Source: Escherichia phage vB_EcoD_Fulano1. Taken from it: a DNA stretch of 51,759 bases. The translations under genes were made by a program, and so were the position numbers. Shown one piece after another: positions 2,208 through 47,588 of this stretch. Location of the stretch: the sequence record OL539459.1. One strand, written 5' to 3'. The first letter of the stretch is position 1, and each line of letters opens with the position of its first letter. The notes under the pieces were generated by a model, which saw only the letters and a program-made list of their open reading frames with translations, was not told the origin of the DNA and searched no databases.

Positions 2208-3488
2208 ATGAGTAAATCACGAATCGTTAAGGCTGATGGCTATAACGAGATCTTTAAAGGCGAGAATTGCAAATCGCGAGTAGAGCAACCATTCTACATG
2301 CAATCAATGCCATACAAGACACTTGCTGACTTTTACGAAAAAGACGGCCTGGCAAAAAGGGTTATTGACGTAGTACCAGAGGAAATGGTTTCCCCTGGCT
2401 TCACGGTTGACGGCGTGGCAGACGAGGCAGCATTCCGTTCTTTGTGGGATGAGAAGCGATTGAATGCAAAAATTATTGATGCGCTTTGCTGGTCGCGTTT
2501 GTTTGGCGGATCTGCAATCATTGCTCTTGTTCAGGATGGGCGGGCGCTCAAATCACCTGTAAAGCCTGGTGCCACGCTGGAAGACGTGCGCGTTTACGAT
2601 CGTTATCAGATTCGCGTTGAAGCGCGAGAAACAAATCCCCGCAAGGTTCGCTATGGTGAGCCAGTGCTTTACACTGTAACGCCAGGAGGAGACTTGCCGG
2701 AATACCAGGTACACTACACGCGCGTTTGCATTATCGACGGTGAGCGGATACCTAACGCAAAGCGACGCAGCAATGACGGCTGGGGTGAGTCAGTTCTTAA
2801 CAAGCGGCTTGTTGAGGCTATTGTTGATTATAACTATTGTGAAACATTAGCTACGCAATTATTGCGAAGAAAACAACAGGCAGTATGGAAGGCCAAAGGT
2901 CTTGCTGACTTGTGCGATGATGAGGAGGGTGTTAGCGCGGCACGCTTGAGACTTGCGCAGGTTGACGACGAGGGCGGCGTTGGCAAGGCCATTGGTATTG
3001 ATGCTGAGGATGAGGAATATGATGTTCTTAACTCTGACATTAGCGGCGTTGATTCTTTTCTGGAAAAGAAAATGGATCGCATCGTTTCCCTTTCAGGTAT
3101 TCATGAAATCATCCTGAAAAATAAAAACGTTGGCGGAGTTAGCGCAAGCCAAAACACGGCGCTTGAAACATTCTATAAACTTATTGAGCGAAAACGCGTC
3201 GAGGATTACAAGCCTATCCTTGAATTTCTATTGCCGTTCATCATTAGTGAGCAGGAATGGAGCATTGAGTTTTCACCTTTGAGCGTACCTAGCGATAAAG
3301 ATCAGGCTGAAATTCTGAATAAGAATATCGACTCAATCAGCAAGGCTATTGATGGTCAGTTCCTTGATGTTGAAGAAGCGCGCGACACGTTGCGAGCAAT
3401 CGCACCAAGCGTTAAACTAAAGGACACCAATAAAATCAAGCTGCCGGAGCCAACTGAGCCGGAGCCAGGCACACAGGGGAATGAGTAA
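2208..3488 (+). CDS. portal protein
   Basis: ORF track 2175..3488 trimmed to ATG 2208 behind GGAGG (2196-2200); ~430 aa gene directly after terminase, acidic C-terminus; position-based call. Confidence 0.65.
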   Translation: MSKSRIVKADGYNEIFKGENCKSRVEQPFYMQSMPYKTLADFYEKDGLAKRVIDVVPEEMVSPGFTVDGVADEAAFRSLWDEKRLNAKIIDALCWSRLFGGSAIIALVQDGRALKSPVKPGATLEDVRVYDRYQIRVEARETNPRKVRYGEPVLYTVTPGGDLPEYQVHYTRVCIIDGERIPNAKRRSNDGWGESVLNKRLVEAIVDYNYCETLATQLLRRKQQAVWKAKGLADLCDDEEGVSAARLRLAQVDDEGGVGKAIGIDAEDEEYDVLNSDISGVDSFLEKKMDRIVSLSGIHEIILKNKNVGGVSASQNTALETFYKLIERKRVEDYKPILEFLLPFIISEQEWSIEFSPLSVPSDKDQAEILNKNIDSISKAIDGQFLDVEEARDTLRAIAPSVKLKDTNKIKLPEPTEPEPGTQGNE

Positions 3489-4252
3489 TGAAAGTGAAGG
3501 GCGTCGTTAAACAATGGCGCTTTCCTGAAGCAAGCGAGCGGCAATTTAGCCGCTCAATTCAGGAGGCAATTAGAGAACTTGTAGTTCTCATGCGCAAGCG
3601 AACAAAAGCGATGAAGTTTGATGCAACAGATAATGAGATCAACAGCGCAGAAGATGAAATTAACAGCCTGGCAACTGACCTTATAGCTGGCATTGTTTCA
3701 ACTCTTCCCGCAATCGCGTTGACAATTTATAAATTCAATGCGAAGCAGTTTATCAATGTTGCCAAGTCAACTGGCGGAAAGGATAATACGGCGGTAATTG
3801 TTTTGATCGCGGTTGGCGCTAACGCTAACGAGGACTGGTATCAGACGCTATACGGTCAATGGCACGGGCTTACAGAATCATCGCTAAGGAAGTTATTCAC
3901 AAACATTGTTTCTGATTGGTCAACAAACATTCGAAATGCAAACTTTCGCGGAAGCAATGATAAACAGGTTAATGATCTTGCAGAAAAGAGATTTGCTGTT
4001 TATAGCTCTTGGGGTAAAACGAGATCAGAAAACATTATCGGCGCGTGGAATAGTCGCCTGATGCGCCAGCGCCTTTATGATGCTAAGGTGACTCATTATT
4101 TCTGGCATGGAATGTTAGATGATAGAGAGCGATTGCAGCATGTGTTATGGGAAGGTAAAAGAATAGCGCTTGATGCAATTCATGATTTCCCTGGTGAGCC
4201 GTGGGGTTGCCGTTGCTGGGCGATTCCAGATTGGAATAATAAAGGAGAGTAA
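3488..4252 (+). CDS. head morphogenesis / minor capsid protein (SPP1 gp7 / Mu F-like)
   Basis: 254 aa, start overlaps portal stop (TAATG); position after portal. Confidence 0.5.
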   Translation: MKVKGVVKQWRFPEASERQFSRSIQEAIRELVVLMRKRTKAMKFDATDNEINSAEDEINSLATDLIAGIVSTLPAIALTIYKFNAKQFINVAKSTGGKDNTAVIVLIAVGANANEDWYQTLYGQWHGLTESSLRKLFTNIVSDWSTNIRNANFRGSNDKQVNDLAEKRFAVYSSWGKTRSENIIGAWNSRLMRQRLYDAKVTHYFWHGMLDDRERLQHVLWEGKRIALDAIHDFPGEPWGCRCWAIPDWNNKGE

Positions 4253-5380: not shown

Positions 5381-5893
5381 ATGGCTACAATTGGAGCAAG
5401 TTATTTTGCTGTAATGTCTCGTGCGTTACCTGGTCAGGTTTCTGACACTTCAGCTTATAATATTGATGGCGCTTGTGTTCTTGAGAATGCGGCAGGCAAT
5501 CAGAATCAGTCTGTTTTTGTTGGTGTGGCGGTCCAGCATGGCGGCGTTGATGCGATGGGTAATAAACTGATCAAGCCTATGGCGGCAAGCGGCAAGGCTT
5601 ACGGTGTTGCAATTCGATCCCACTTCCAGACGACTTCGGCTGACGGTCGAATGATTTATGAGTCTGGCGGCGGAATCAACGTAATGACTGAGGGGCGTGT
5701 TTGGATGTTGGCTAAAGACGCTTCCGCGCCAGCGTTCGGCACTACAATCAAGCTGTCTAATGATGGTCAGGTTGATACAGGGTCTGGCACTATCGAAACA
5801 AACTGGATCGCAACTGGTGACTTTACCGAGTTTCAAGACTTGAAGCTGGTAGAGGTTCAGGTGCAAAAAGTTCCGGCAGTTTCTGCTGGTTAA
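5381..5893 (+). CDS. capsid-associated structural protein, paralog 1 (decoration-like)
   Basis: 170 aa; shares motifs VGVAV and GRVWxL...DAxAPxxG...G(D/N)WIxTG with the next gene; RBS AAGGAG upstream. Confidence 0.4.
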   Translation: MATIGASYFAVMSRALPGQVSDTSAYNIDGACVLENAAGNQNQSVFVGVAVQHGGVDAMGNKLIKPMAASGKAYGVAIRSHFQTTSADGRMIYESGGGINVMTEGRVWMLAKDASAPAFGTTIKLSNDGQVDTGSGTIETNWIATGDFTEFQDLKLVEVQVQKVPAVSAG

Positions 5894-20660: not shown

Positions 20661-20690
20661 AAAAGGGGCTTTCGCCCCTTTATTTTTATT
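20661..20690. terminator. bidirectional intrinsic terminator
   Basis: A-run, stem GGGGC/GCCCC, T-run; between convergent genes. Confidence 0.7.
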
Positions 20691-20917
20691 TACAGACTGC
20701 AATCAGCGTTTTTAAAGTTATCAATACTTACCCACTGAAAATTAAACGGATAGCCAGCCTTAACAAGAGTGCGGTCGCCAACTCGTTTCACTCCGAAAAT
20801 AGCAACTGAATACTGCATTCCGCTATTTTCATAAATAGCCGTGCATTCACGTTTAGGCATATTTGCGCACCCAGTCAGGGTTACGGCTGCAATCAAAACG
20901 GCGATTAACTTTTTCAT
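20690..20917 (-). CDS. cor: lipoprotein, Cor-like superinfection exclusion candidate
   Basis: 75 aa, signal peptide MKKLIAVLIAAVTLTGC with lipobox, RBS AAGGAG; located after tail fibre genes as for cor in T1/phi80-type phages. Confidence 0.5.
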   Translation of the reverse strand: MKKLIAVLIAAVTLTGCANMPKRECTAIYENSGMQYSVAIFGVKRVGDRTLVKAGYPFNFQWVSIDNFKNADCSL

Positions 20918-20973
20918 GTTGGTGTCTCCTTAGTTGTTGTTGGTTGCAACTATACACGATCTTGCGGTGGGCG

Positions 20974-20991
20974 TTTAGCAAAAAGTGCTAT
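20974..20991 (-). promoter_or_regulatory. recurrent element upstream of Cor-like gene
   Basis: on minus strand ATAGCACTTTTTGCTAAA then ~21 nt then TATAGT then RBS then ATG 20917. Confidence 0.45.
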
Positions 20992-21160
20992 TCTTGTTCT
21001 TTTTGTTATCCGGCGTTCTCAAATCTGCGGAGTCTTAAATTTAGCTCAAAAAGTGAACAACAATAGAGCGCAATACATACAGATAAATATATACATACAT
21101 ATAAATCAATAAGTTAGCAGTATATATATTCATGTTTGTTCTTTATTGTTATCTATGTTT

Positions 21161-21224
21161 TGTGTGATTTTGTGTGTCTGGTGATTTTTCTGTGATTATG
21201 CATGTGTCAGTGGTTATGTGTGTC
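21161..21224. repeat. phased TGTG/GTGATT short direct repeats (~10 bp period)
   Basis: TGTGTGATTT TGTGTGTCTG GTGATTTTTC TGTGATTATG CATGTGTCAG TGGTTATGTG TGTC. Confidence 0.5.
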
Positions 21225-21360
21225 TATATATCTATATCCGGCGCAAATTGAGGAACAAGAGAACAAAAAGACAACAAAGATATTTATCAATCACTTACAT
21301 GTAAGTTTTGTTATCAAAGCTGGCTAGAACGTTGCTAGAACAGAAAAAACAAAATAACTA

Positions 21361-21388
21361 TTGACTAAACGCATCAAATAGCTACAAT
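21361..21388 (+). promoter_or_regulatory. sigma70-like promoter TTGACT-16-TACAAT for recombination operon
   Basis: TTGACT 21361-21366, TACAAT 21383-21388, about 30 nt before ATG 21418. Confidence 0.55.
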
Positions 21389-21417
21389 GCAGACATACCA
21401 ACCAATGAGGGCAAATC

Positions 21418-22479
21418 ATGAATAAGTTTATGGCGTACACCAGCGAAGAAATGAGCAATGAGCTTTATCACGATCCAGAAGCGTGGACGGCTGATTATGT
21501 TAGCGGTTCAAGCCTGGCAGAGATTTACAGCACATGCCCGGCAGCGTGGAAGTTCAAGCCGCGTGACGACAAGAGCAAGGCGCTAGTTTTTGGTACGCAG
21601 TCGCATACCAACTTTGAAAGCAAGGAGCTTTTCGAAAAAACCTATCGCCGTGCGCCAGCACCAGAAGACTTTAAGGATCTGATAACCAGCCAAACGGCGC
21701 TTGCTGCAAAGCTGAAATCATTTGGCCTGAAAGGTACAACCGGAAAGACTTATCCCGAACTTATAAAAATGATGGTTGACTGCGGAGAAGACCTTAACGT
21801 CATGTGGTTAATCGACATGATCGCAGAAAGTCAGGCCAGGGCCGATGGGGTTCAGTTAATAGAGTCTAAAGATTACGATTCGTGCGTGGCAATGCGCCAG
21901 GTTCTGGAATCAATACCGGAACATAACGCATGTATGAATAGCAAGACGGCACAACGTGAATTATCGTTGTTCGGTGAAATTAACGGCGTAAAAGTCAAAG
22001 TGCGATGCGATCACGTTGACGTAACAAAGAACGTCACAGCAACGCTGATTGATGGTTACGATGAAAAAGGTCATCCGATTTGCCGCGATATTATTTATCC
22101 AGAGGCCATTGTGATCACAGACTACAAAACTACAATGAGCGCGAATCCGGCTGAGTTTATGCGCCTGGCTTACAATCACGGCTATTATTTGAAAATGGCG
22201 TTGCAATGTGATTTATTCAGAAAAGCGTATCCAGAAGAAAAGCGACCTATAGTTGTGCGACTGTTAGCGCAAGAGAAGAAAGAGCCTTATTTGCCGTTGG
22301 CTTTCCGCATGAACAGCGAGCAATTGAAGATCGGGCGCATTCAGTACATGAGCGTAATTAACCAGTTTGCCATGTGCCAGCAACATGACGTTTGGCCTTC
22401 GTATTCAAACGGCGAGCCGGAGGTTTGCCTTGATACTCCTGACTGGGTGCGACGCCAGTTTAAGCAATATCTTATTTAA
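21418..22479 (+). CDS. recombination exonuclease (PD-(D/E)xK family)
   Basis: 353 aa; motif VITDYKT; first gene of exo-Erf-SSB operon behind TTGACT-16-TACAAT promoter. Confidence 0.55.
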   Translation: MNKFMAYTSEEMSNELYHDPEAWTADYVSGSSLAEIYSTCPAAWKFKPRDDKSKALVFGTQSHTNFESKELFEKTYRRAPAPEDFKDLITSQTALAAKLKSFGLKGTTGKTYPELIKMMVDCGEDLNVMWLIDMIAESQARADGVQLIESKDYDSCVAMRQVLESIPEHNACMNSKTAQRELSLFGEINGVKVKVRCDHVDVTKNVTATLIDGYDEKGHPICRDIIYPEAIVITDYKTTMSANPAEFMRLAYNHGYYLKMALQCDLFRKAYPEEKRPIVVRLLAQEKKEPYLPLAFRMNSEQLKIGRIQYMSVINQFAMCQQHDVWPSYSNGEPEVCLDTPDWVRRQFKQYLI

Positions 22480-27996: not shown

Positions 27997-28929
27997 TTAG
28001 AGAAGTGATTCAGGCTTGTAAACCTTTCTCTCCATCCCTTGCCTGTAATTATCATTAATCGGCATCATAATTTCAAGTCCTCTTTCCTCTGCGGCAATGA
28101 TCGAGTCACGGTCTGTACTCTTACAGACAACTCTCATTCTTCTGTTTCCCTTATACCTGTAAGCCACAATCTCAATGTTAGTTGCATCAAAGCAGGCCCA
28201 AACCTCTTGACCAGTTGCAAGGTGAATATGTTGCGCATCAATCCAGTCAACGCAAAGATAGATCGTCTTATCGGTGCTTCCTGTTCTCACAACCGACCCG
28301 CGCGTGTAGTCCTTTGCGAGAAAAGACTGTTTACCATCTTCATCAATGAAAAGCACATTGCACATTTCATCATCAATATCATCGGAATGCACCAGGTAAC
28401 ATGGTAACGCGTGAATGTATCGACCATCTTTAACGCCGCATTCATAATAACCATTTTCAGGAGGATATATCCCTTCATAGGTGCTTAACGGCGTGCGATC
28501 AAATTTTAGTGTTTTTGACATAACGCGCTCGCAGCATTCATGGCTTGCCTGCTTCCCAAACGAATAACCAGAATCACGAGATACTCTCTTATTTGCCTTG
28601 ATCCTATAGTCCTGCGGAACTTTTCCAAGAAAGCGGCCCAAAATATTGATCACTTCGCTGTAAGGTTCTCCGGTTAGCTTCATGATCCAACCAATTCCAG
28701 TATCGTTTCCGCACACATTGCAGATAGCGCCGCCGTCGCCTTTTTTATCTCCAAGTTTATCAGTCCATCTAAAGCGATCCTTTCCGCCGCAGTGGGGGCA
28801 AGATTGATGCTTGCCGTTAAAAACTTCATTTGGAAGACCACAAATACTTTGTAGCGCCTCACGCCATAATCCCTGCATATATGGGAGAACATCTTCCTTT
28901 TGATAAACCATAAAGTTTTCGTTATTCAT
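27997..28929 (-). CDS. putative DNA primase (zinc-ribbon containing)
   Basis: trimmed to ATG 28929 behind GAGGTG; Cys cluster CPHCGGKDRFRW...CNVCG; acidic stretch HSDDIDDE. Confidence 0.45.
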   Translation of the reverse strand: MNNENFMVYQKEDVLPYMQGLWREALQSICGLPNEVFNGKHQSCPHCGGKDRFRWTDKLGDKKGDGGAICNVCGNDTGIGWIMKLTGEPYSEVINILGRFLGKVPQDYRIKANKRVSRDSGYSFGKQASHECCERVMSKTLKFDRTPLSTYEGIYPPENGYYECGVKDGRYIHALPCYLVHSDDIDDEMCNVLFIDEDGKQSFLAKDYTRGSVVRTGSTDKTIYLCVDWIDAQHIHLATGQEVWACFDATNIEIVAYRYKGNRRMRVVCKSTDRDSIIAAEERGLEIMMPINDNYRQGMERKVYKPESLL

Positions 28930-28984
28930 ATACACCTCAAACAAAAAAGCCTGACAGATGATAACATCATGCCAGGCATTGTTT

Positions 28985-29458
28985 TTAGCAATTAGTGCTT
29001 TCAGGTTTATACAGGAATCCGCCAGGTTCATAATCTGACATTCTTACCACTCGCAACATTTCACGCTTATCACATCTCTTTGTGAGCGGTTTGCCATTGG
29101 AATCAAATCGCAGGTCTGGACGACAGAATGATGCGCGATAGCCTTGACATCCATATTTTTTGTAATCGTTATGCACCTTTTGAGCGCCAGCGGCTGAAAT
29201 CATACCACGAACGCGCCACTGATTTACAGTTTGCTGGCTAACGTTAAGACGTTTTGCCATTGCTGACACGCTTCCGTAATACTCAATAAGGATGTCAAGT
29301 CGCGCTTTTAGTCCGGCGCGCACTTCATCTTTTAAAACATAGTATCCCGTAGGGCGCTTGCGCTTCTTCTTGTCCTTGCCTCTTCGAGTTCCGTTATTGC
29401 CATTAATTGTGCGCTTGTCAATCTTTCCTGTTGATACTGCGATTCGTTGCTCTTTCAT
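28985..29458 (-). CDS. HTH DNA-binding protein (putative regulator)
   Basis: 157 aa; basic N-terminus RRGKDKKKRKRP; helix-turn-helix-like MAKRLNVSQQTVNQWR; divergent from helicase gene. Confidence 0.5.
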   Translation of the reverse strand: MKEQRIAVSTGKIDKRTINGNNGTRRGKDKKKRKRPTGYYVLKDEVRAGLKARLDILIEYYGSVSAMAKRLNVSQQTVNQWRVRGMISAAGAQKVHNDYKKYGCQGYRASFCRPDLRFDSNGKPLTKRCDKREMLRVVRMSDYEPGGFLYKPESTNC

Positions 29459-29471
29459 TATTCATTCTCCA

Positions 29472-29518
29472 ATAGCATTTTTTGTTAAACGATGATTTAA
29501 TGATTGTGTATTATACAC
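29472..29518 (+). promoter_or_regulatory. helicase promoter region: recurrent element plus 13-bp palindrome GTGTATTATACAC
   Basis: ATAGCATTTTTTGTTAAAC 29472-29490; perfect palindrome 29506-29518 overlapping -10-like TATTAT. Confidence 0.45.
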
Positions 29519-29547: not shown

Positions 29548-31593
29548 ATGATTCCAAACATTGAAAAGCAAATATCAGCACTTGGTGAAGCGGTAATTAA
29601 ATCCATTCAGGAGCGATTCACTGTTGGAGAGATTGTGCCTTACCCTTACCAGTGCGTTGCATACGCTGAGATCGCAAAGCGTATGAAAAATTATGAGCAT
29701 CCATTCTTTGTTAAAGCGTCGGTATCGGCTGGCAAAACATTGATGTTTGCAATGGTTGCTCACCAGTGCCGTAAAATGGGCTTGAAAATGATGGTCCTTG
29801 CTCGCCAGGCTGAGATTGTGGATCAGGATTCTGAAGAGATAACAAATCTTGGCGTGCCGAACTCTATCTATTGTGCAGGACTGAAGACAAAAAGCGCATA
29901 CTTTCCGATCGTTGTTGGTTCTGAGGGAACTGTAGTTAATGGACTGTTTAAAGCGCTTGGCGACTATGTTCCGCACGTTATCGGGATTGACGAGTGTCAC
30001 CAGGTGGATTGGGAAGACCTTGCCGACGCAATAGAGAAAGACGAATCATTTTTACAAATGACGACGAAGAAAGGCGAAAAAGTACCAAATCCAGATTATG
30101 ACATAACAAAGGGAAGCAGGAACAGAAATACAGAGTTCCTGATTGGTGAGGATGGCTTGCCAATGGAGGGAACAGGCCGCACACAATACACTGTCATTAT
30201 CATGGAAATGATGCGACGTTGCAGGAAAGCATATGGCCATGAACTGCGCATATTTGGCATGACTGGATCGGAGTTTCGCGGTGTAGTCCCAATACTGGTA
30301 GAAGATAAAAAGCAGAAAGGATTTTGGCGTGAACAGGTTACTAATATTGACACCAACTACCTGATCAAGTTCGGTTCTGTTGTTCCGACTAATTTTGGCG
30401 ACGTTGGCGATCTCGGGTATGACCTTTCAGAGTTTGAGGCATCAAGCGAGGATGGCGTTGCAGACTTTGACGCTAAAACGCTTCGTAGGATGGAACAAAA
30501 AATTCATGAAGAAGCGACCATGACAAAGCGCATCATGGCGAAAGTGCACGAGATCTGTAAAAACCGTAACGGTGTACTTGTGACATGTGCAGGCGAAAGG
30601 CACTGTAAAGAGGCAGCGGCAGCATTGCCACCTGGAACGACTTACAGGATCATTACTGGTAAGACTGGAGATAACCAGCGAAAGGAGTGGTTGAAAGAAG
30701 CATACGAGGGGAAGGTTAAATACATCTTCCAGGTGCAGGCGCTAACTACTGGCGTTAACGTGCCGTTTTGGGATACGTCTGTTATTCTGCGTAAGATTGG
30801 ATCTCTTACGTTGCTGATTCAGCTTTTAGGGCGCGGAATGCGACTACTTAAGAAGTGGCATAAGGAGCAAGGATTCCAGAAAGATGATCATCTCGTCATG
30901 GATTTTTCAGGAACGATGGACGAGCTAGGGGAGCTTTATTTTGATCCGATACTGGAACAGGCGCAGCATCAGAAGCGATTCAGAAATGGTAAAGATCCGA
31001 AGCCTTGTCCTGTTTGCGGAACTCTTAACAGCTATTATGCTCGTCGTTGTATGCACGTAGACGAAAACGGCAACAGATGCGAGTGGTTCTTTAAATTCAG
31101 GACATGTGATGATCAGATTGACCCGCGCACTAAAAAGATTATTCATCGCGGTTGCGGAACGAAGAATGATATTGCGGCCAGGGTATGCAGACATTGCGAC
31201 ATGTCATTGATTGACCCCAACGAGAAGTTAAGCGGAAAGCACTACACAAAAAACGACTGGTTCCAAGTGCAATCTTTCGCGGTTAACATGACGAAAAACC
31301 AGAAAGGGATAATATTTAATTATGAGCTTTCCGATGGCATAGATACTTTCAAGGCGAGAGAGATATTTTTCCCTGAATCTGAAAGCCAAATTTGTCGCGC
31401 AAAATGGCGAAGCGTTGCTCTTAAGCACATACCAGATCGCCGTGTCGCTGGCATGGTCGCGAGCTATCGTAATGCACGAAAAATAATGCAGTATGTGAAT
31501 CACATTATGCCACCATCGCGCGTTACTCACCGCAAGACTAGCAAGGGCGAAGATAATTTGTACAAGAAGGAATTTAATTATGGCAATGACTGA
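29548..31593 (+). CDS. SF2 DNA helicase (DEAH-like)
   Basis: Walker A SVSAGKT, motif II GIDECHQV, C-terminal Cys clusters; start ATG 29548 (RBS AAAGG) chosen, ATG 29524 possible. Confidence 0.7.
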   Translation: MIPNIEKQISALGEAVIKSIQERFTVGEIVPYPYQCVAYAEIAKRMKNYEHPFFVKASVSAGKTLMFAMVAHQCRKMGLKMMVLARQAEIVDQDSEEITNLGVPNSIYCAGLKTKSAYFPIVVGSEGTVVNGLFKALGDYVPHVIGIDECHQVDWEDLADAIEKDESFLQMTTKKGEKVPNPDYDITKGSRNRNTEFLIGEDGLPMEGTGRTQYTVIIMEMMRRCRKAYGHELRIFGMTGSEFRGVVPILVEDKKQKGFWREQVTNIDTNYLIKFGSVVPTNFGDVGDLGYDLSEFEASSEDGVADFDAKTLRRMEQKIHEEATMTKRIMAKVHEICKNRNGVLVTCAGERHCKEAAAALPPGTTYRIITGKTGDNQRKEWLKEAYEGKVKYIFQVQALTTGVNVPFWDTSVILRKIGSLTLLIQLLGRGMRLLKKWHKEQGFQKDDHLVMDFSGTMDELGELYFDPILEQAQHQKRFRNGKDPKPCPVCGTLNSYYARRCMHVDENGNRCEWFFKFRTCDDQIDPRTKKIIHRGCGTKNDIAARVCRHCDMSLIDPNEKLSGKHYTKNDWFQVQSFAVNMTKNQKGIIFNYELSDGIDTFKAREIFFPESESQICRAKWRSVALKHIPDRRVAGMVASYRNARKIMQYVNHIMPPSRVTHRKTSKGEDNLYKKEFNYGND

Positions 31594-31999
31594 TAAAGGC
31601 GATTATCTGGAGTTTTACGAAAGAGATCCGACAGATACACTAAAAGAAGAATCGCACCAGATAGGCGCGTTTCAATGGGTAACTTATGCTCATCCTGAAT
31701 TACTGGCATGGCATACGAAAAACGAGGGCGACAAGGGGATCGCCACCGCAATGATGGATCAGCAAGCTGGGCTTGTTAAGGGCGTAAGTGATTTTATCAT
31801 CCTGATTGGATTAAAAGGTCGTTACCCGTTCGCGGCAATTGAGATGAAGCGCGTCAATAAGTCCGGCAAGGGTAAGGCTTCACCAGTCAGCAAGGACCAA
31901 AAAGCCTTCTTGCGTCGTGTGCGTGAGCTTGGCGGATTCGCTGCCGTAACATACGGATATAAGCAATTCATGATCGCGGTAGAATACATGATGAAATAG
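31580..31999 (+). CDS. VRR-NUC domain nuclease
   Basis: 139 aa; PD-(D/E)xK-like core GVSDFIILIG ... AIEMK. Confidence 0.55.
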   Translation: MAMTDKGDYLEFYERDPTDTLKEESHQIGAFQWVTYAHPELLAWHTKNEGDKGIATAMMDQQAGLVKGVSDFIILIGLKGRYPFAAIEMKRVNKSGKGKASPVSKDQKAFLRRVRELGGFAAVTYGYKQFMIAVEYMMK

Positions 32000-32015
32000 C
32001 ACTTTTTGTTAAAAC
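31996..32015 (+). promoter_or_regulatory. recurrent element ATAGCACTTTTTGTTAAAAC
   Basis: overlaps stop TAG of 31580..31999; hairpin 32017-32034 then CATAAT 32034-32039. Confidence 0.45.
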
Positions 32016-42975: not shown

Positions 42976-43212
42976 TTATTCCGATCGCGCTTTAACAAAA
43001 AGTGCTATTTGCTGACTGGTCATTATTCCATCTATTCCATTAATCAGGAATAACAGGAATAATTCATTCGCGATCACCTGGATTGTGAGACTTTGAGTTT
43101 GATCAATTTTAATCAGTTGATTAACTTTTTGTGTGGAGGGGATAGAGAAACGCGGCCCTCTTGCGTCCTTTCCAGCAATCCTGGCGCGCGCATCTGTTAT
43201 TTCTGTTCCCAA
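42976..43212 (-). CDS. questionable ORF (may be non-coding leader)
   Basis: 78 aa; contains dyad repeat 43022-43063 and recurrent element 42991-43008. Confidence 0.2.
   Translation of the reverse strand: MGTEITDARARIAGKDARGPRFSIPSTQKVNQLIKIDQTQSLTIQVIANELFLLFLINGIDGIMTSQQIALFVKARSE
42991..43008 (-). promoter_or_regulatory. recurrent element ATAGCACTTTTTGTTAAA
   Basis: ~70 nt upstream of ATG 42927; not at a stop codon here. Confidence 0.35.
43022..43063. repeat. dyad-symmetric element with ATTCC/GGAAT half-sites
   Basis: ATTATTCC (43022-43029), ATTCC (43034-43038), centre ATTAAT, GGAAT (43047-43051), GGAATAAT (43056-43063). Confidence 0.5.
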
Positions 43213-43549
43213 TGTTATCTCAAATAAGCCTCCGCACTTTTAGATAACAGAAACGGCGTTCATCAACAAAAAGAACAAAATAAAATTTATATATATACCC
43301 ATAAAATCAATAAGTTAGTTATATATGTATTTATATTTGTTATTTACTGTTATGCTTGTTCTGTGGGTATGTGGTGGGTGTTGATGATTCCTTCATTTAA
43401 CATTTGTACTTTTTATGCGGTTATATATATAGATTTTGCGGCATTATCGAGACAACCAGTGAACGAGATTGAACGAGCTTTAAAATCAATCACTTGCGCG
43501 CAATTTTGTTATCGCGTCAAAAAAAGATGTTATTAGAACGAAAAATCAG

Positions 43550-43578
43550 TTGACTACCTGGCTGTGAGTATTGATAAT
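43550..43578 (+). promoter_or_regulatory. sigma70-like promoter TTGACT-17-GATAAT for rightward early operon
   Basis: TTGACT 43550-43555, GATAAT 43573-43578, 33 nt before ATG 43611. Confidence 0.55.
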
Positions 43579-43610
43579 GCACGCAGACAAAACGAAAAGG
43601 GAGACAGCAC

Positions 43611-44383: not shown

Positions 44384-44649
44384 TGAATAAGGCATTAATT
44401 GGAGTTTTGATTGCAATTGCTACCCTGACCGGATGCGAAAAGGCATCTGAATCAACGGTAGTCGTAGGCGTGGAGTCAGATTTTAAAGTCGGTCGCCTGT
44501 TTACTGTTGATGGATGCACTGCGTACCGATTCTATGATAACGGTCACGCGATCTATTACACCAACTGCAAGGGCACGACTAGCTGGGAAGTGTCGAAAAG
44601 CAACGGCAAGGTAACGACAACAGAACATATGACAGTGGAGACAAAATAG
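44383..44649 (+). CDS. lipoprotein (signal peptide near-identical to Cor-like gene)
   Basis: GTG start overlapping previous stop; MNKALIGVLIAIATLTGC lipobox. Confidence 0.5.
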   Translation: MNKALIGVLIAIATLTGCEKASESTVVVGVESDFKVGRLFTVDGCTAYRFYDNGHAIYYTNCKGTTSWEVSKSNGKVTTTEHMTVETK

Positions 44650-44665
44650 CACTTTTTGTTAAAAC
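44646..44665 (+). promoter_or_regulatory. recurrent element ATAGCACTTTTTGTTAAAAC
   Basis: overlaps stop TAG of lipoprotein gene; CATAAT 44684-44689. Confidence 0.45.
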
Positions 44666-47391: not shown

Positions 47392-47588
47392 TTTGGTTAC
47401 TTGTATTTTTGGTGGTTTTCTTTTATATTTCAGGCTTATTCATCTTCCGTGCGCTGGTGAAAACATGCGATTGCACGGATAAAGATCAGCCTCTTGTTCT
47501 GATGTTCTGGTTTGTGTGGTTTTGGGTTGTGTGGTTTTGGGTTGCGCTTTATCAGATTGTACGGGATAAAAGCGGATTCAAGTGGTGA
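47388..47588 (+). CDS. small membrane protein (Trp/Phe-rich)
   Basis: 66 aa, two hydrophobic segments, FWFVWFWVVWFWV from DNA direct repeat 47508-47540. Confidence 0.4.
   Translation: MIWLLVFLVVFFYISGLFIFRALVKTCDCTDKDQPLVLMFWFVWFWVVWFWVALYQIVRDKSGFKW

What the first reader, a model, noticed from the sequence alone, without database searches (positions are those of the whole stretch)
21161..21224. Helically phased TGTG/GTGATT repeats next to an AT-rich tract in control region A
Six to seven short repeats recur with about a 10-bp period, preceded by TATATATATT and ATACATACATATA tracts. Region B has a weaker counterpart (CTGTGGGTATGTGGTGGGTG, about 43350-43375). Phased repeats next to AT-rich DNA are typical of bent DNA, iterons or factor-binding arrays.
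Basis: seen in the sequence. Interest (0 to 1): 0.45.

Follow-up and report, generated by a model that had tools for sequence, protein, structure and literature searches.

The report
Variable G/T-rich stretch in phage control region
The GTG/GTGATT repeats are real, but they are a partly conserved, partly drifting G/T-rich stretch inside a larger non-coding module (very AT-rich core, IHF-like sites, TTGTT repeats, early promoter) that occurs twice in every T1-like phage genome examined and whose function, promoter control or replication origin, is still unknown.

Summary
The window is a T1-like coliphage (Drexlerviridae, Hanrivervirus). 21161-21224 has 10 GTG in 64 nt, the genome maximum (mean 0.7), with a period of about 9.5 bp, and it lies beside AT-rich tracts. 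Region B has a homologous counterpart.

- Two curvature calculations find nothing unusual in the array.
- No iteron-length repeats and no DnaA boxes are present.
- The dense array exists only within the genus. Collinear relatives keep G/T-richness at that position but not the sequence, and Rtp lacks the stretch altogether.
- Among close relatives the left half (21156-21190; TGTGTGATT, TGGTGATTTTT) is constrained. The right half drifts at the synonymous rate.

The stronger result is the context. The array sits in a module of about 330 bp present twice (regions A and B). The module's AT cores are the two least stable duplex segments of the genome here and in T1, TLS, Rtp and Samwise. Cores co-evolve within genomes. 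Perfect IHF-consensus sites, TTGTT/AACAA blocks and a near-consensus sigma-70 promoter flank each core.

Best reading: a linker or contact segment of an early-promoter control module (about 0.42). Main rival: the unmapped replication origins of T1-like phages (about 0.28).

The parts
21156..21190 (+). Left half of the G/T array. It holds TGTGTGATT (21161-21169) and TGGTGATTTTT (21179-21189).
   Evidence: Pairwise difference among 9 close relatives is 0.052, below every 35-column block of exoVIII third codon positions (minimum 0.062). Both words recur in the same order in the common Hanrivervirus region B allele. GGTGATTT is kept at the same alignment column in lineages L008-L012.
21191..21224 (+). 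Right half of the G/T array, read as decayed local duplications. GTGGTTATGTGTGTCT (21210-21225) is an 88% copy of GTGATTTTGTGTGTCT (21164-21179).
   Evidence: Pairwise difference is 0.138, equal to the synonymous-site level of 0.131. L006 and L007 carry a 2-nt indel. The duplicate pairs are D4 and D5.
21075..21133 (.). AT-rich TATATA core of module A, one of the two least stable duplex segments of the genome.
   Evidence: By nearest-neighbour free energy, windows 21083-21132 (50 bp) and 21071-21170 (100 bp) rank second in the genome, about 4 SD from the mean. TA-step density is in the top two. The equivalent position is least stable in all 45 relatives.
21104..21116 (+). IHF-consensus site 1, AATCAATAAGTTA, inside the AT core.
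   Evidence: It is a perfect match to WATCAANNNNTTR. The 14-mer AATCAATAAGTTAG is identical in region B at 43305. Pairwise difference among close relatives is 0.017.
21134..21153 (+). Composite TTGTT block, TTTGTTCTTTATTGTTATC. A second direct copy lies at 20994-21010.
   Evidence: TGTTATC is enriched 36-fold and TTGTTCT 33-fold in A+B against the rest of the genome. The TTGTT columns are invariant across 13 Tempevirinae sequences.
20994..21010 (+). Upstream copy of the composite TTGTT block, TTGTTCTTTTTGTTATC.
21047..21066 (-). Inverted AACAA block, CAAAAAGTGAACAACAATAG.
   Evidence: Inverted repeats I3 and I6. It coincides with a predicted curvature peak at 21031-61.
21225..21243 (.). TATATATCTATAT followed by CCGGCG, which closes the array.
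   Evidence: Pairwise difference is 0.017-0.037. It is conserved across A and B modules and across genera.
21250..21281 (-). AACAA direct repeats with an 8-11-bp period (GAACAAGAGAACAAAAAGACAACAAAG), the inverted counterpart of the TTGTT blocks.
   Evidence: Tandem Repeats Finder reports period 11 x2 at 21257-21278. Its columns are conserved across Tempevirinae. T1 has allele-specific equivalents, GTTAC x2 and GATTAACAC x3. It lies on the curvature peak at 21244-74.
21285..21297 (+). IHF-consensus site 2, TATCAATCACTTA, about 104 bp upstream of the predicted transcription start. It overlaps the palindrome CTTACATGTAAG (21294-21305).
   Evidence: Consensus match. Region B has AATCAATCACTTG at 43484. 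ATCA...CTTA is conserved across the subfamily. Pairwise difference is 0.017.
21305..21315 (+). GTTTTGTTATC block.
   Evidence: Exact TTTTGTTATC also occurs at 21001 and 43504. Conserved.
21337..21360 (+). A-rich, UP-element-like stretch just upstream of the -35 hexamer.
   Evidence: Pairwise difference is 0.032. Conserved columns.
21361..21388 (+). Sigma-70 promoter TTGACT-16-TACAAT driving exoVIII-erf-ssb.
   Evidence: It is the only 10/12 match in the region. TTGAC and TA.AAT are invariant in 13 relatives. TLS authors predict a promoter P51 before the orthologous recE (PMC11447400).
43263..43335 (.). AT core of module B, with IHF-consensus site 1 at 43305-43317.
   Evidence: It is the least stable 50/100/200-bp window of the genome. 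It aligns with module A.
43356..43420 (+).
   Evidence: G+T is 0.75. Homology is shown. A mosaic breakpoint lies at about 43377.
43460..43496 (+). TGAACGAG x2 (10-bp period, 43460-43477) followed by IHF-consensus site 2 (43484-43496) in module B.
43550..43578 (+). Sigma-70 promoter TTGACT-17-GATAAT of the rightward early operon.
20974..20991 (-). Copy of the family's 21-nt intergenic repeat (ATAGCACTTTTTGCTAAA), facing cor. It is adjacent to the module, not part of the array.
   Evidence: The window has 19 copies against 0.7 expected. The repeat is described for TLS in PMC11447400.

Best explanation
The GTG/GTGATT array is the G/T-rich segment of a conserved non-coding module of about 330 bp that precedes an early host-RNA-polymerase promoter. 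It is not a set of iterons and not a bent-DNA element. From left to right the module has TTGTT blocks, a TATATA core with an IHF-consensus site, a second TTGTT block, the G/T stretch, TATATAT-CCGGCG, inverted AACAA direct repeats, a second IHF-consensus site near -104, an A-rich UP-like tract and a near-consensus sigma-70 promoter. The module occurs twice. Copy A lies before exoVIII-erf-ssb. Copy B lies beside the packaging (pac) region, before the rightward early operon. Shown here: only the left 35 bp of the array (TGTGTGATT ... TGGTGATTTTT) is under constraint. The right 34 bp are recent duplicates drifting at the neutral rate, and they create most of the apparent 9.5-bp periodicity. Inferred: IHF bends the DNA at the two flanking sites, and a sequence-specific protein binds the TTGTT/AACAA blocks and perhaps the two GTGAT words. 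That protein is most likely phage-encoded, for example the Cro-like regulator at 28985-29458 (- strand). The TG/CA-rich, easily deformed array serves as linker or contact DNA in a wrapped complex. This complex would set the activity and timing of the promoter 170-240 bp downstream.
For: Position relative to the promoter is fixed. The G/T-rich maximum lies near -284 and the least stable 50 bp at -330 to -366 from the exoVIII ATG across the relatives. Constraint among close relatives is graded: IHF sites, TATATAT, the UP-like tract and the promoter differ by 0.017-0.03, the array's left half by 0.052 and its right half by 0.138, against 0.131 at synonymous sites. TTGTT/AACAA columns and the promoter hexamers are invariant across 13 Tempevirinae sequences, while the array varies in sequence and length. 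TGTTATC and TTGTTCT are 33-36-fold enriched in A+B. Four perfect IHF-consensus sites sit at homologous positions of A and B. A and B are paralogous, and their cores resemble each other more than they resemble orthologues in other subfamilies. That pattern is expected for sites read by one co-evolving factor. A Cro-like helix-turn-helix protein is encoded in the genome. The TTTTTGTTA word is shared with the 19-copy promoter-associated 21-nt repeat. [quoted passage not shown] TG/CA-step density is the genome maximum, which fits deformable DNA.
Against: No binding, transcription or timing data exist for any of these sites. The AT core lies about 250 bp upstream of the -35 hexamer, far for a conventional upstream activator. 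The exact IHF consensus is limited to this genus and a few neighbours. IHF1-IHF2 spacing varies from 179 to 182 bp, and array length varies by tens of bp between lineages, so strict helical phasing of a loop is not maintained. Rtp has the twin cores but no array, and its region A core lies about 60 nt from the promoter. The window's own region B lacks the GTGAT words. An extreme AT core with flanking repeats is at least as typical of origins as of promoters.
Confidence: 0.42

Rival explanations
1. The two modules are the replication origins of T1-like phages, or a bipartite ori plus enhancer. The TATATA core is the unwinding element, IHF assists opening, and the TTGTT/AACAA and GTGAT words bind a phage initiator. 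The unstructured G/T-rich strand next to the core is where the phage helicase and primase load. Transcription from the adjacent early promoter supplies negative supercoiling behind the polymerase.
For: The AT cores of A and B are the two least stable duplex segments in the window, TLS and T1, Rtp and Samwise, that is 5 of 5 genomes across three subfamilies. An IHF consensus lies inside the core. Short repeats in both orientations flank it. The single strand of 21040-21300 folds less well than shuffles (z=+2.0). A and B cores evolve in concert. The family encodes its own primase and helicases, yet published analyses report no origin (PMC11447400; PMC7718038). From my own knowledge, not tested here: SPP1 (oriL/oriR) and P4 (ori/crr) use two related cis sites, and R6K gamma ori has IHF sites on both sides of its iterons.
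Against: No DnaA boxes occur in A or B. No iteron-length repeats are present. No initiator gene is adjacent, and the primase, regulator and helicase lie about 8 kb away. The module always travels with a promoter at fixed distance, and the most conserved parts are promoter-proximal. GC skew simply follows gene orientation. There is no experimental mapping.
Confidence: 0.28
2. The array itself is a specific binding array. Three to four [T/G]GTGAT[T] words are recognised by a genus-specific protein, in the manner of iterons or operators.
For: Three GTGAT occur in 29 nt, where the array's own base composition predicts about 0.16 in the whole array (my arithmetic; counts). In KarlJaspers the only non-coding clusters of 3 or more GTGAT are the region A and region B arrays. 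The common region B allele keeps 3-4 GTGAT at the same positions in KarlJaspers, aalborv, slyngel and the more distant BEK7. GTGAT#1 is invariant, and the left half is constrained.
Against: GTGAT#3 and GTGGT#4 vary freely (0.19-0.26). The window's own region B allele has no GTGAT. Spacings are irregular at 17, 11 and 18 nt. Other genera lack the words. The words are not clustered elsewhere in the genome.
Confidence: 0.15
3. The array is intrinsically curved DNA, formed by helically phased tracts, that acts structurally on the promoter or the AT core.
For: T-tracts lie at 21158, 21167 and 21184. The array has a periodicity of about 9.5 bp. Moderately high predicted curvature is seen for windows that extend into the right flank, 97th-99th percentile.
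Against: The array is not an outlier in the wedge model. The peaks are at 21031-61 and 21244-74, in the flanks (parameters recalled from memory). The phased A-tract score is ordinary at 10.5 and 11 bp and at most the 95th percentile at 10.0 bp. A 9.5-bp period drifts out of phase with B-DNA over six repeats. Region B shows no periodicity.
Confidence: 0.05
4. The array is functionless low-complexity DNA, a slippage and duplication product tolerated between functional blocks.
For: The right half evolves at the synonymous rate and carries an indel. Sequence and length are not conserved between genera. The stretch is absent in Rtp. Internal duplicates are visible.
Against: The left half is more conserved than any synonymous-site block. 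G+T of 0.75-0.89 is kept at the same distance from exoVIII across Tempevirinae despite sequence turnover. Two words are shared with the region B arrays of the genus.
Confidence: 0.1

Closest known systems
Lambdoid OL/OR twin operator regions (own knowledge)
   Same: Two paralogous non-coding control regions lie kilobases apart, each ahead of an early promoter. Their short repeated sites co-vary between phage lineages, and a Cro-type helix-turn-helix protein is encoded in the genome.
   Different: No 17-bp palindromic operators overlap the -35 or -10 hexamers here. The repeats lie 30-400 bp upstream. An extreme AT core and IHF-consensus sites are included. The phage is virulent, and binding by the Cro-like protein is untested.
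Iteron origins with IHF sites: R6K gamma ori, pSC101 ori, lambda ori (own knowledge)
   Same: An AT-rich, easily melted segment lies next to short direct repeats. IHF-consensus sites flank the repeat zone, as ihf1 and ihf2 do in R6K gamma. A promoter follows.
   Different: There are no 17-22-bp iterons, no DnaA boxes and no adjacent rep gene. The repeats are 5-9-nt words, irregularly spaced and poorly conserved.
Two-site phage replication elements: SPP1 oriL/oriR and P4 ori/crr (own knowledge)
   Same: Two related cis elements lie far apart in one headful-packaging or small phage genome. The phage encodes a primase with a T7/P4-type zinc ribbon (PF08273).
   Different: No initiator protein or binding data are known for T1-like phages. 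The primase here lacks the P4 alpha helicase and DNA-binding domains (344 aa). The resemblance of TTGTTCT to the P4 TGTTCACC iteron is a recollection, not a test.
ilvPG UAS1 with IHF, a supercoiling-induced duplex destabilisation relay (own knowledge)
   Same: An IHF site sits inside the most easily melted AT-rich DNA upstream of a sigma-70 promoter. Such a site could transmit destabilisation to the -10 hexamer.
   Different: The destabilised core here is about 285 bp from the start site, far more than the roughly -92 in ilvPG. A second IHF site and repeat blocks lie in between.
21-nt intergenic direct repeat of T1-like phages (German et al. 2024, PMC11447400)
   Same: It is found in the same genomes. 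Copies flank both modules (20974-20991 and 42991-43008). It shares the word TTTTTGTTA with the module's TTGTT blocks.
   Different: The array does not match the consensus aaATAGCACnnnTTGnTAAAA. That repeat sits about 76 nt before start codons in the direction of transcription, whereas the array lies 190-260 nt upstream of exoVIII.

Membership tests
Iteron-type replication origin | Three or more direct repeats of about 17-22 bp with a conserved sequence | tested here: not met
   Tandem Repeats Finder finds only a 10-nt unit x1.9 and an 11-nt unit x2. The best longer pair is 16 nt at 88%. Units are not conserved among relatives.
Iteron-type replication origin | An adjacent AT-rich DNA unwinding element | tested here: met
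   21083-21132 and 43287-43336 are the two least stable 50-bp windows of the genome. The same holds in T1, TLS, Rtp and Samwise.
Iteron-type replication origin | DnaA boxes (TTWTNCACA) in or beside the repeats | tested here: not met
   The genome has 4 matches, none in A or B, against 7.6 expected by chance.
Iteron-type replication origin | An initiator (rep) gene adjacent to or containing the repeats | tested here: not met
   The neighbours are cor and exoVIII. The primase, Cro-like regulator and helicase lie about 8 kb away.
Iteron-type replication origin | Initiation of DNA synthesis at the site | not testable with these tools
   This needs marker-frequency or nascent-strand mapping. The literature reports the origin as not found.
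Intrinsically curved DNA (phased A-tracts) | A/T tracts of 4 or more bases repeated in phase with the 10-11-bp helix | tested here: not met
   The array has only three T-tracts, with starts 9 and 17 nt apart. The phasing score is ordinary at 10.5 and 11 bp and at most the 95th percentile at 10.0 bp.
Intrinsically curved DNA (phased A-tracts) | Predicted helix-axis curvature that is an outlier for the genome | tested here: not met
   In the wedge model the peaks are in the flanks (21031-61 and 21244-74, 99.85th percentile), not in 21161-21224. The parameters were recalled from memory, so this is indicative only.
IHF binding site | Core WATCAANNNNTTR with an AT-rich tract 5' of it | tested here: met
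   21104-21116, 21285-21297, 43305-43317 and 43484-43496 are perfect matches. The genome has 12 against 4.8 expected. AT-rich 5' flanks are visible. These sites flank the array and are not part of it.
IHF binding site | Actual binding and bending by IHF | not testable with these tools
   This needs gel-shift or footprinting assays. The exact consensus is limited to this genus and a few neighbours.
UP element of a sigma-70 promoter | An A/T-rich tract at -40 to -60 | tested here: not met
   The array lies about 170-240 bp upstream of the predicted start. The A-rich tract at 21337-21360 does fit this position.
pac (packaging initiation) site of T1-like phages | Similarity to the mapped pac region of TLS or T1, or to the homologous stretch of this window (43030-43190) | tested here: not met
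   Local alignment scores are not above shuffles (p=0.07-0.27). TLS pac maps about 215 bp to the left of the region B AT core.
T1-like 21-nt intergenic repeat | A match to aaATAGCACnnnTTGnTAAAA | tested here: not met
   The window has 19 copies, none inside 21156-21224. The nearest is at 20974-20991 on the - strand.
Structured RNA or small ORF | An Rfam match, a stable fold or a conserved reading frame | tested here: not met
   There is no Rfam hit in region A. The fold is weaker than shuffles. A 2-nt indel in L006 and L007 breaks ORF 21202-21327.

The most novel reading that the evidence does not exclude
The twin paralogous AT-core modules (A at about 21.1 kb and B at about 43.3 kb, with the G/T array as the flank of A) are the long-unidentified replication origins of T1-like phages (Drexlerviridae). 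They would be DnaA-independent and IHF-assisted, activated by the adjacent early promoter and recognised by a phage factor that co-evolves with both copies. The G/T-rich, unstructured strand would be the loading or priming zone.
Probability: 0.25. Interest if true: 0.7.

Novelty: new member of a known kind. Interest (0 to 1): 0.4.

Why it matters
T1 is one of the seven classical T phages, yet the papers read here report no identified replication origin for T1-like phages and predict promoters only in silico. I know of no mapping of either. This check shows that the eye-catching repeats are a minor, partly drifting component. It also points to a sharply defined pair of conserved non-coding modules, the two least stable DNA segments in every genome examined, as the obvious candidates for early-promoter control or for the origins. 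That turns an open question into a few cheap experiments, such as marker frequency, transcription-start mapping and IHF or regulator footprints. It is also useful for engineering Drexlerviridae phages used in therapy and biocontrol. Annotators should stop calling small ORFs in these regions.

Tried and rejected
- **pac-like site:** the array does not resemble the mapped TLS or T1 pac regions, or the window's homologous stretch, beyond chance.
- **DnaA-dependent origin:** no DnaA boxes lie in A or B.
- **CRP sites:** the TGTGA half-sites have no TCACA partner at the 6-nt spacing (read).
- **Curvature:** two independent calculations give ordinary values for the array.
- **Z-DNA:** the alternating purine-pyrimidine runs are only 6-10 bp long, too short by established knowledge.
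- **Cruciform or hairpin:** inverted repeats are at most about 72-82% complementary over 17-29 nt, and the single strand folds worse than shuffles.
- **Structured RNA:** there is no Rfam hit.
- **Small protein:** ORF 21202-21327 is frameshifted in L006 and L007.
- **Internal promoter in the AT core or array:** none meets the scan criteria on either strand.
- **T7-type primase sites:** GTGTC occurs 3 times in A, but region B has none, so this was dropped.
- **Host or plasmid origin of the sequence:** there is no match in E. coli genomes or plasmids.
- **Relatives of the gene after region B:** a search with that protein found none, and an exact-pattern scan for the region B block recovered only TLS.
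- **Literature:** searches for T1-like transcriptomes, origin mapping or the P4 iteron sequence gave nothing usable. The Rtp genome paper is not held.

Full report
**Identity and setting.** The window is a complete or near-complete genome of a T1-like virulent coliphage. The 551 bp around the finding are 96.7% identical to Shigella phage pSf-1 (Drexlerviridae, Tempevirinae, Hanrivervirus), and 57 phage records match at 90% or more. The finding lies in a 500-bp intergenic region, called A here (20918-21417). Region A sits between the leftward cor superinfection-exclusion gene (20690-20917) and the rightward exoVIII-erf-ssb operon, which starts at 21418. Region B (about 43190-43610) separates two divergent clusters of small early genes.

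**The observation.** The array is real and exceptional in composition.
- 21161-21224 holds 10 GTG and 8 TGTG in 64 nt, the maxima of the genome on either strand (means 0.70 and 0.16).
- It has the highest TG/CA-step density in the genome.
- It lies in the most G+T-rich 100 nt of the genome (0.79). Array composition is A .10, C .07, G .30, T .52.
- Spacings between GTG clusters are 10, 8, 11, 12, 6 and 9 nt. Fourier power peaks at 9.5 bp rather than 10.5, so the helical phasing is only approximate.
- Tandem Repeats Finder recognises just TTTTGTGTGA x1.9. The longer similarities are two duplicate pairs, 21158-77 with 21186-205 and 21164-79 with 21210-25.
- The region B counterpart, at 43361-43380, is truly homologous (p=0.006) but is not periodic.

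**The three suggested readings.**
- Curvature. A wedge-model path places the predicted bends in the flanking A-tract blocks (21031-61 and 21244-74), not in the array (parameters recalled from memory). A parameter-free phased A-tract score is ordinary.
- Iterons. There are no 17-22-bp units, no DnaA boxes and no neighbouring initiator gene.
- Conservation. ExoVIII was used to fetch 45 collinear loci. The dense GTG array is confined to relatives with 97% or more ExoVIII identity. Lineages at 74-80% retain 2-5 GTG, and sequence and length both change. Rtp and Samwise have no such array.
- G+T-richness of 0.75-0.89 does persist, mostly about 284 nt (273-345) before the exoVIII ATG, in most Tempevirinae lineages, falling to 0.72-0.78 in some.
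- Among nine close relatives the array splits into two parts. The left half (21156-21190) differs by 0.052 per site, below every block of exoVIII third codon positions. The right half (21191-21224) differs by 0.138, the synonymous level, and carries a 2-nt indel.
- The left half holds TGTGTGATT and TGGTGATTTTT. Both recur in the same order in the common Hanrivervirus region B allele, which has 3-4 GTGAT (KarlJaspers, aalborv, slyngel, BEK7). The window's own region B is a rarer allele without them.
- GGTGATTT is also kept at the same alignment column in neighbouring lineages.
- The array therefore has a short constrained core plus a drifting tail of recent duplicates.

**The larger structure.** Regions A and B align over about 350 bp. 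They share, in order:
- TGTTATC;
- a TATATA core containing AATCAATAAGTTAG, identical in both and a perfect IHF consensus;
- TTTGTT.TTTA.TGTTAT;
- the G/T stretch;
- TATATAT followed by (C)GGCG;
- direct repeats of an AAC-containing word with a 10-11-bp period;
- a second perfect IHF consensus, AATCAATCACTT;
- TTTTGTTATC;
- an A-rich tract;
- a near-consensus sigma-70 promoter, TTGACT-16-TACAAT in A and TTGACT-17-GATAAT in B.

TGTTATC and TTGTTCT are 33-36-fold enriched in A+B. The TTGTT/AACAA blocks alternate in orientation, and they are the invariant columns across the subfamily.

The AT cores of B and A are the two least stable 50-, 100- and 200-bp duplex windows of the genome, about 4-4.7 SD from the mean. 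The same is true of TLS and T1, Rtp and the Klebsiella phage Samwise. That is five of five genomes across three subfamilies.

Within a genome the A and B cores are more alike than A orthologues are across subfamilies. Rtp A-B is 86% identical (z 21), and the window's A-B has z 14. This is concerted evolution. T1 and Rtp use GTAAC/GTTAC-type words where this phage uses TTGTT. The module has no match in E. coli genomes or plasmids, no Rfam hit and no conserved ORF. As single-stranded DNA it is less structured than shuffles.

**Relation to packaging.** The T1 and TLS records both open inside region B. The TLS pac site was mapped 5,882 bp from a HindIII site, which lies at 5876. That puts pac about 215 bp to the left of the region B AT core. 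The SU57 paper also places pac in this untranslated region. Pac lies outside the part shared with region A, and the array does not resemble it.

**Mechanism.** What is shown: the anatomy, the graded constraint, the extreme duplex instability, the duplication and the concerted evolution. What is inferred: the function.

I favour an upstream control module for the early host-polymerase promoters (0.42).
- The module keeps a fixed distance to a conserved promoter.
- Its most conserved parts are promoter-proximal.
- IHF site 2 sits near -104.
- A Cro-like helix-turn-helix protein is encoded in the genome.
- The word TTTTTGTTA is shared with the 19-copy promoter-associated 21-nt repeat (PMC11447400).

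In this reading the array is a deformable, partly contacted linker between the two IHF sites.

The main rival (0.28) is that the modules are the family's unidentified origins. The extreme AT core, the IHF site within it, the flanking repeats, the unstructured strand, the presence of two copies and the absence of any reported origin all fit. Against it, there are no DnaA boxes, no iterons and no adjacent initiator gene. The two readings are not exclusive.

Lesser rivals are a GTGAT-specific binding array (0.15), functionless low-complexity DNA (0.10) and bent DNA (0.05).

**Verdict.** The array is a new member of a known kind of phage control region. The twin AT-core modules are the more interesting object and are readily testable.

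Noticed in passing
window, 19 sites, e.g. 20974-20991(-), 42991-43008(-), 29472-29489(+), 31996-32013(+), 44646-44663(+): The 21-nt intergenic repeat described for TLS (ATAGCACnnnTTGnTAAA) occurs 19 times against 0.7 expected, mostly in the direction of transcription. One copy faces leftward from each of regions A and B. Two copies (6393 and 10154, - strand) lie antisense in the late region. Its function is listed as an open question in PMC11447400.
   Followed up: partly
window 43377; loci L048, L070-L072: A mosaic breakpoint lies inside region B. Most Hanrivervirus records match only 43190-43377, and just 4 records share the right half and the downstream gene. The short direct repeats before IHF site 2 differ between alleles: TGAACGAG x2 here and GTCAAC-type in KarlJaspers. 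They may co-vary with the first downstream gene.
   Followed up: partly
window 43030-43190; TLS (L050) 49800-120; T1 (L049) 48740-120; Samwise (L074) 3334-3967: The stretch homologous to the mapped TLS/T1 pac region contains GATT/GATTTGATT-type short repeats (GGATTGTGAGACTTTGAGTTTGATCAATTTTAATCAGTTGATTAAC here). In this genus it is overlapped by an annotated ORF of 71-78 aa (42976-43212, - strand), which may be spurious.
   Followed up: partly
window 21294-21305 and 43494-43503: Perfect palindromes of different sequence overlap the 3' end of IHF-consensus site 2 at the same module position: CTTACATGTAAG in A and TTGCGCGCAA in B. They are not conserved in more distant relatives.
   Followed up: partly
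window 21323-21341: GCTAGAAC is directly repeated 11 bp apart, between the TTTTGTTATC block and the UP-like tract. Region B has a single TAGAAC at the aligned position.
   Followed up: no
window 47495-47545: The most G+T-rich 64 nt of the genome (0.86) is a 15-nt tandem duplication (GTTTGTGTGGTTTTGG / GTTGTGTGGTTTTGG). It lies in what appears to be coding sequence and is unrelated to regions A and B.
   Followed up: no
phage records MG0656xx: Eighteen to twenty records labelled 'Campylobacter phage', with host given as C. jejuni, are 93-95% identical to this coliphage across regions A and B. Mislabelling or carry-over of a T1-like coliphage seems likely.
   Followed up: no
window, whole: The IHF core consensus WATCAANNNNTTR occurs 12 times against 4.8 expected (0 of 100 shuffles reach 12). 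Besides the four module sites, two more flank region B on the - strand (43110 and 43721).
   Followed up: no
window 27997-29031(-), 28985-29458(-), 29554-31593(+): The replication gene cluster consists of a primase with a T7/P4-type zinc ribbon (PF08273), a 157-aa protein with a P22-Cro/XPH1-like helix-turn-helix, and an SF2 helicase transcribed divergently. The Cro-like protein is the obvious candidate to test on the TTGTT blocks.
   Followed up: partly
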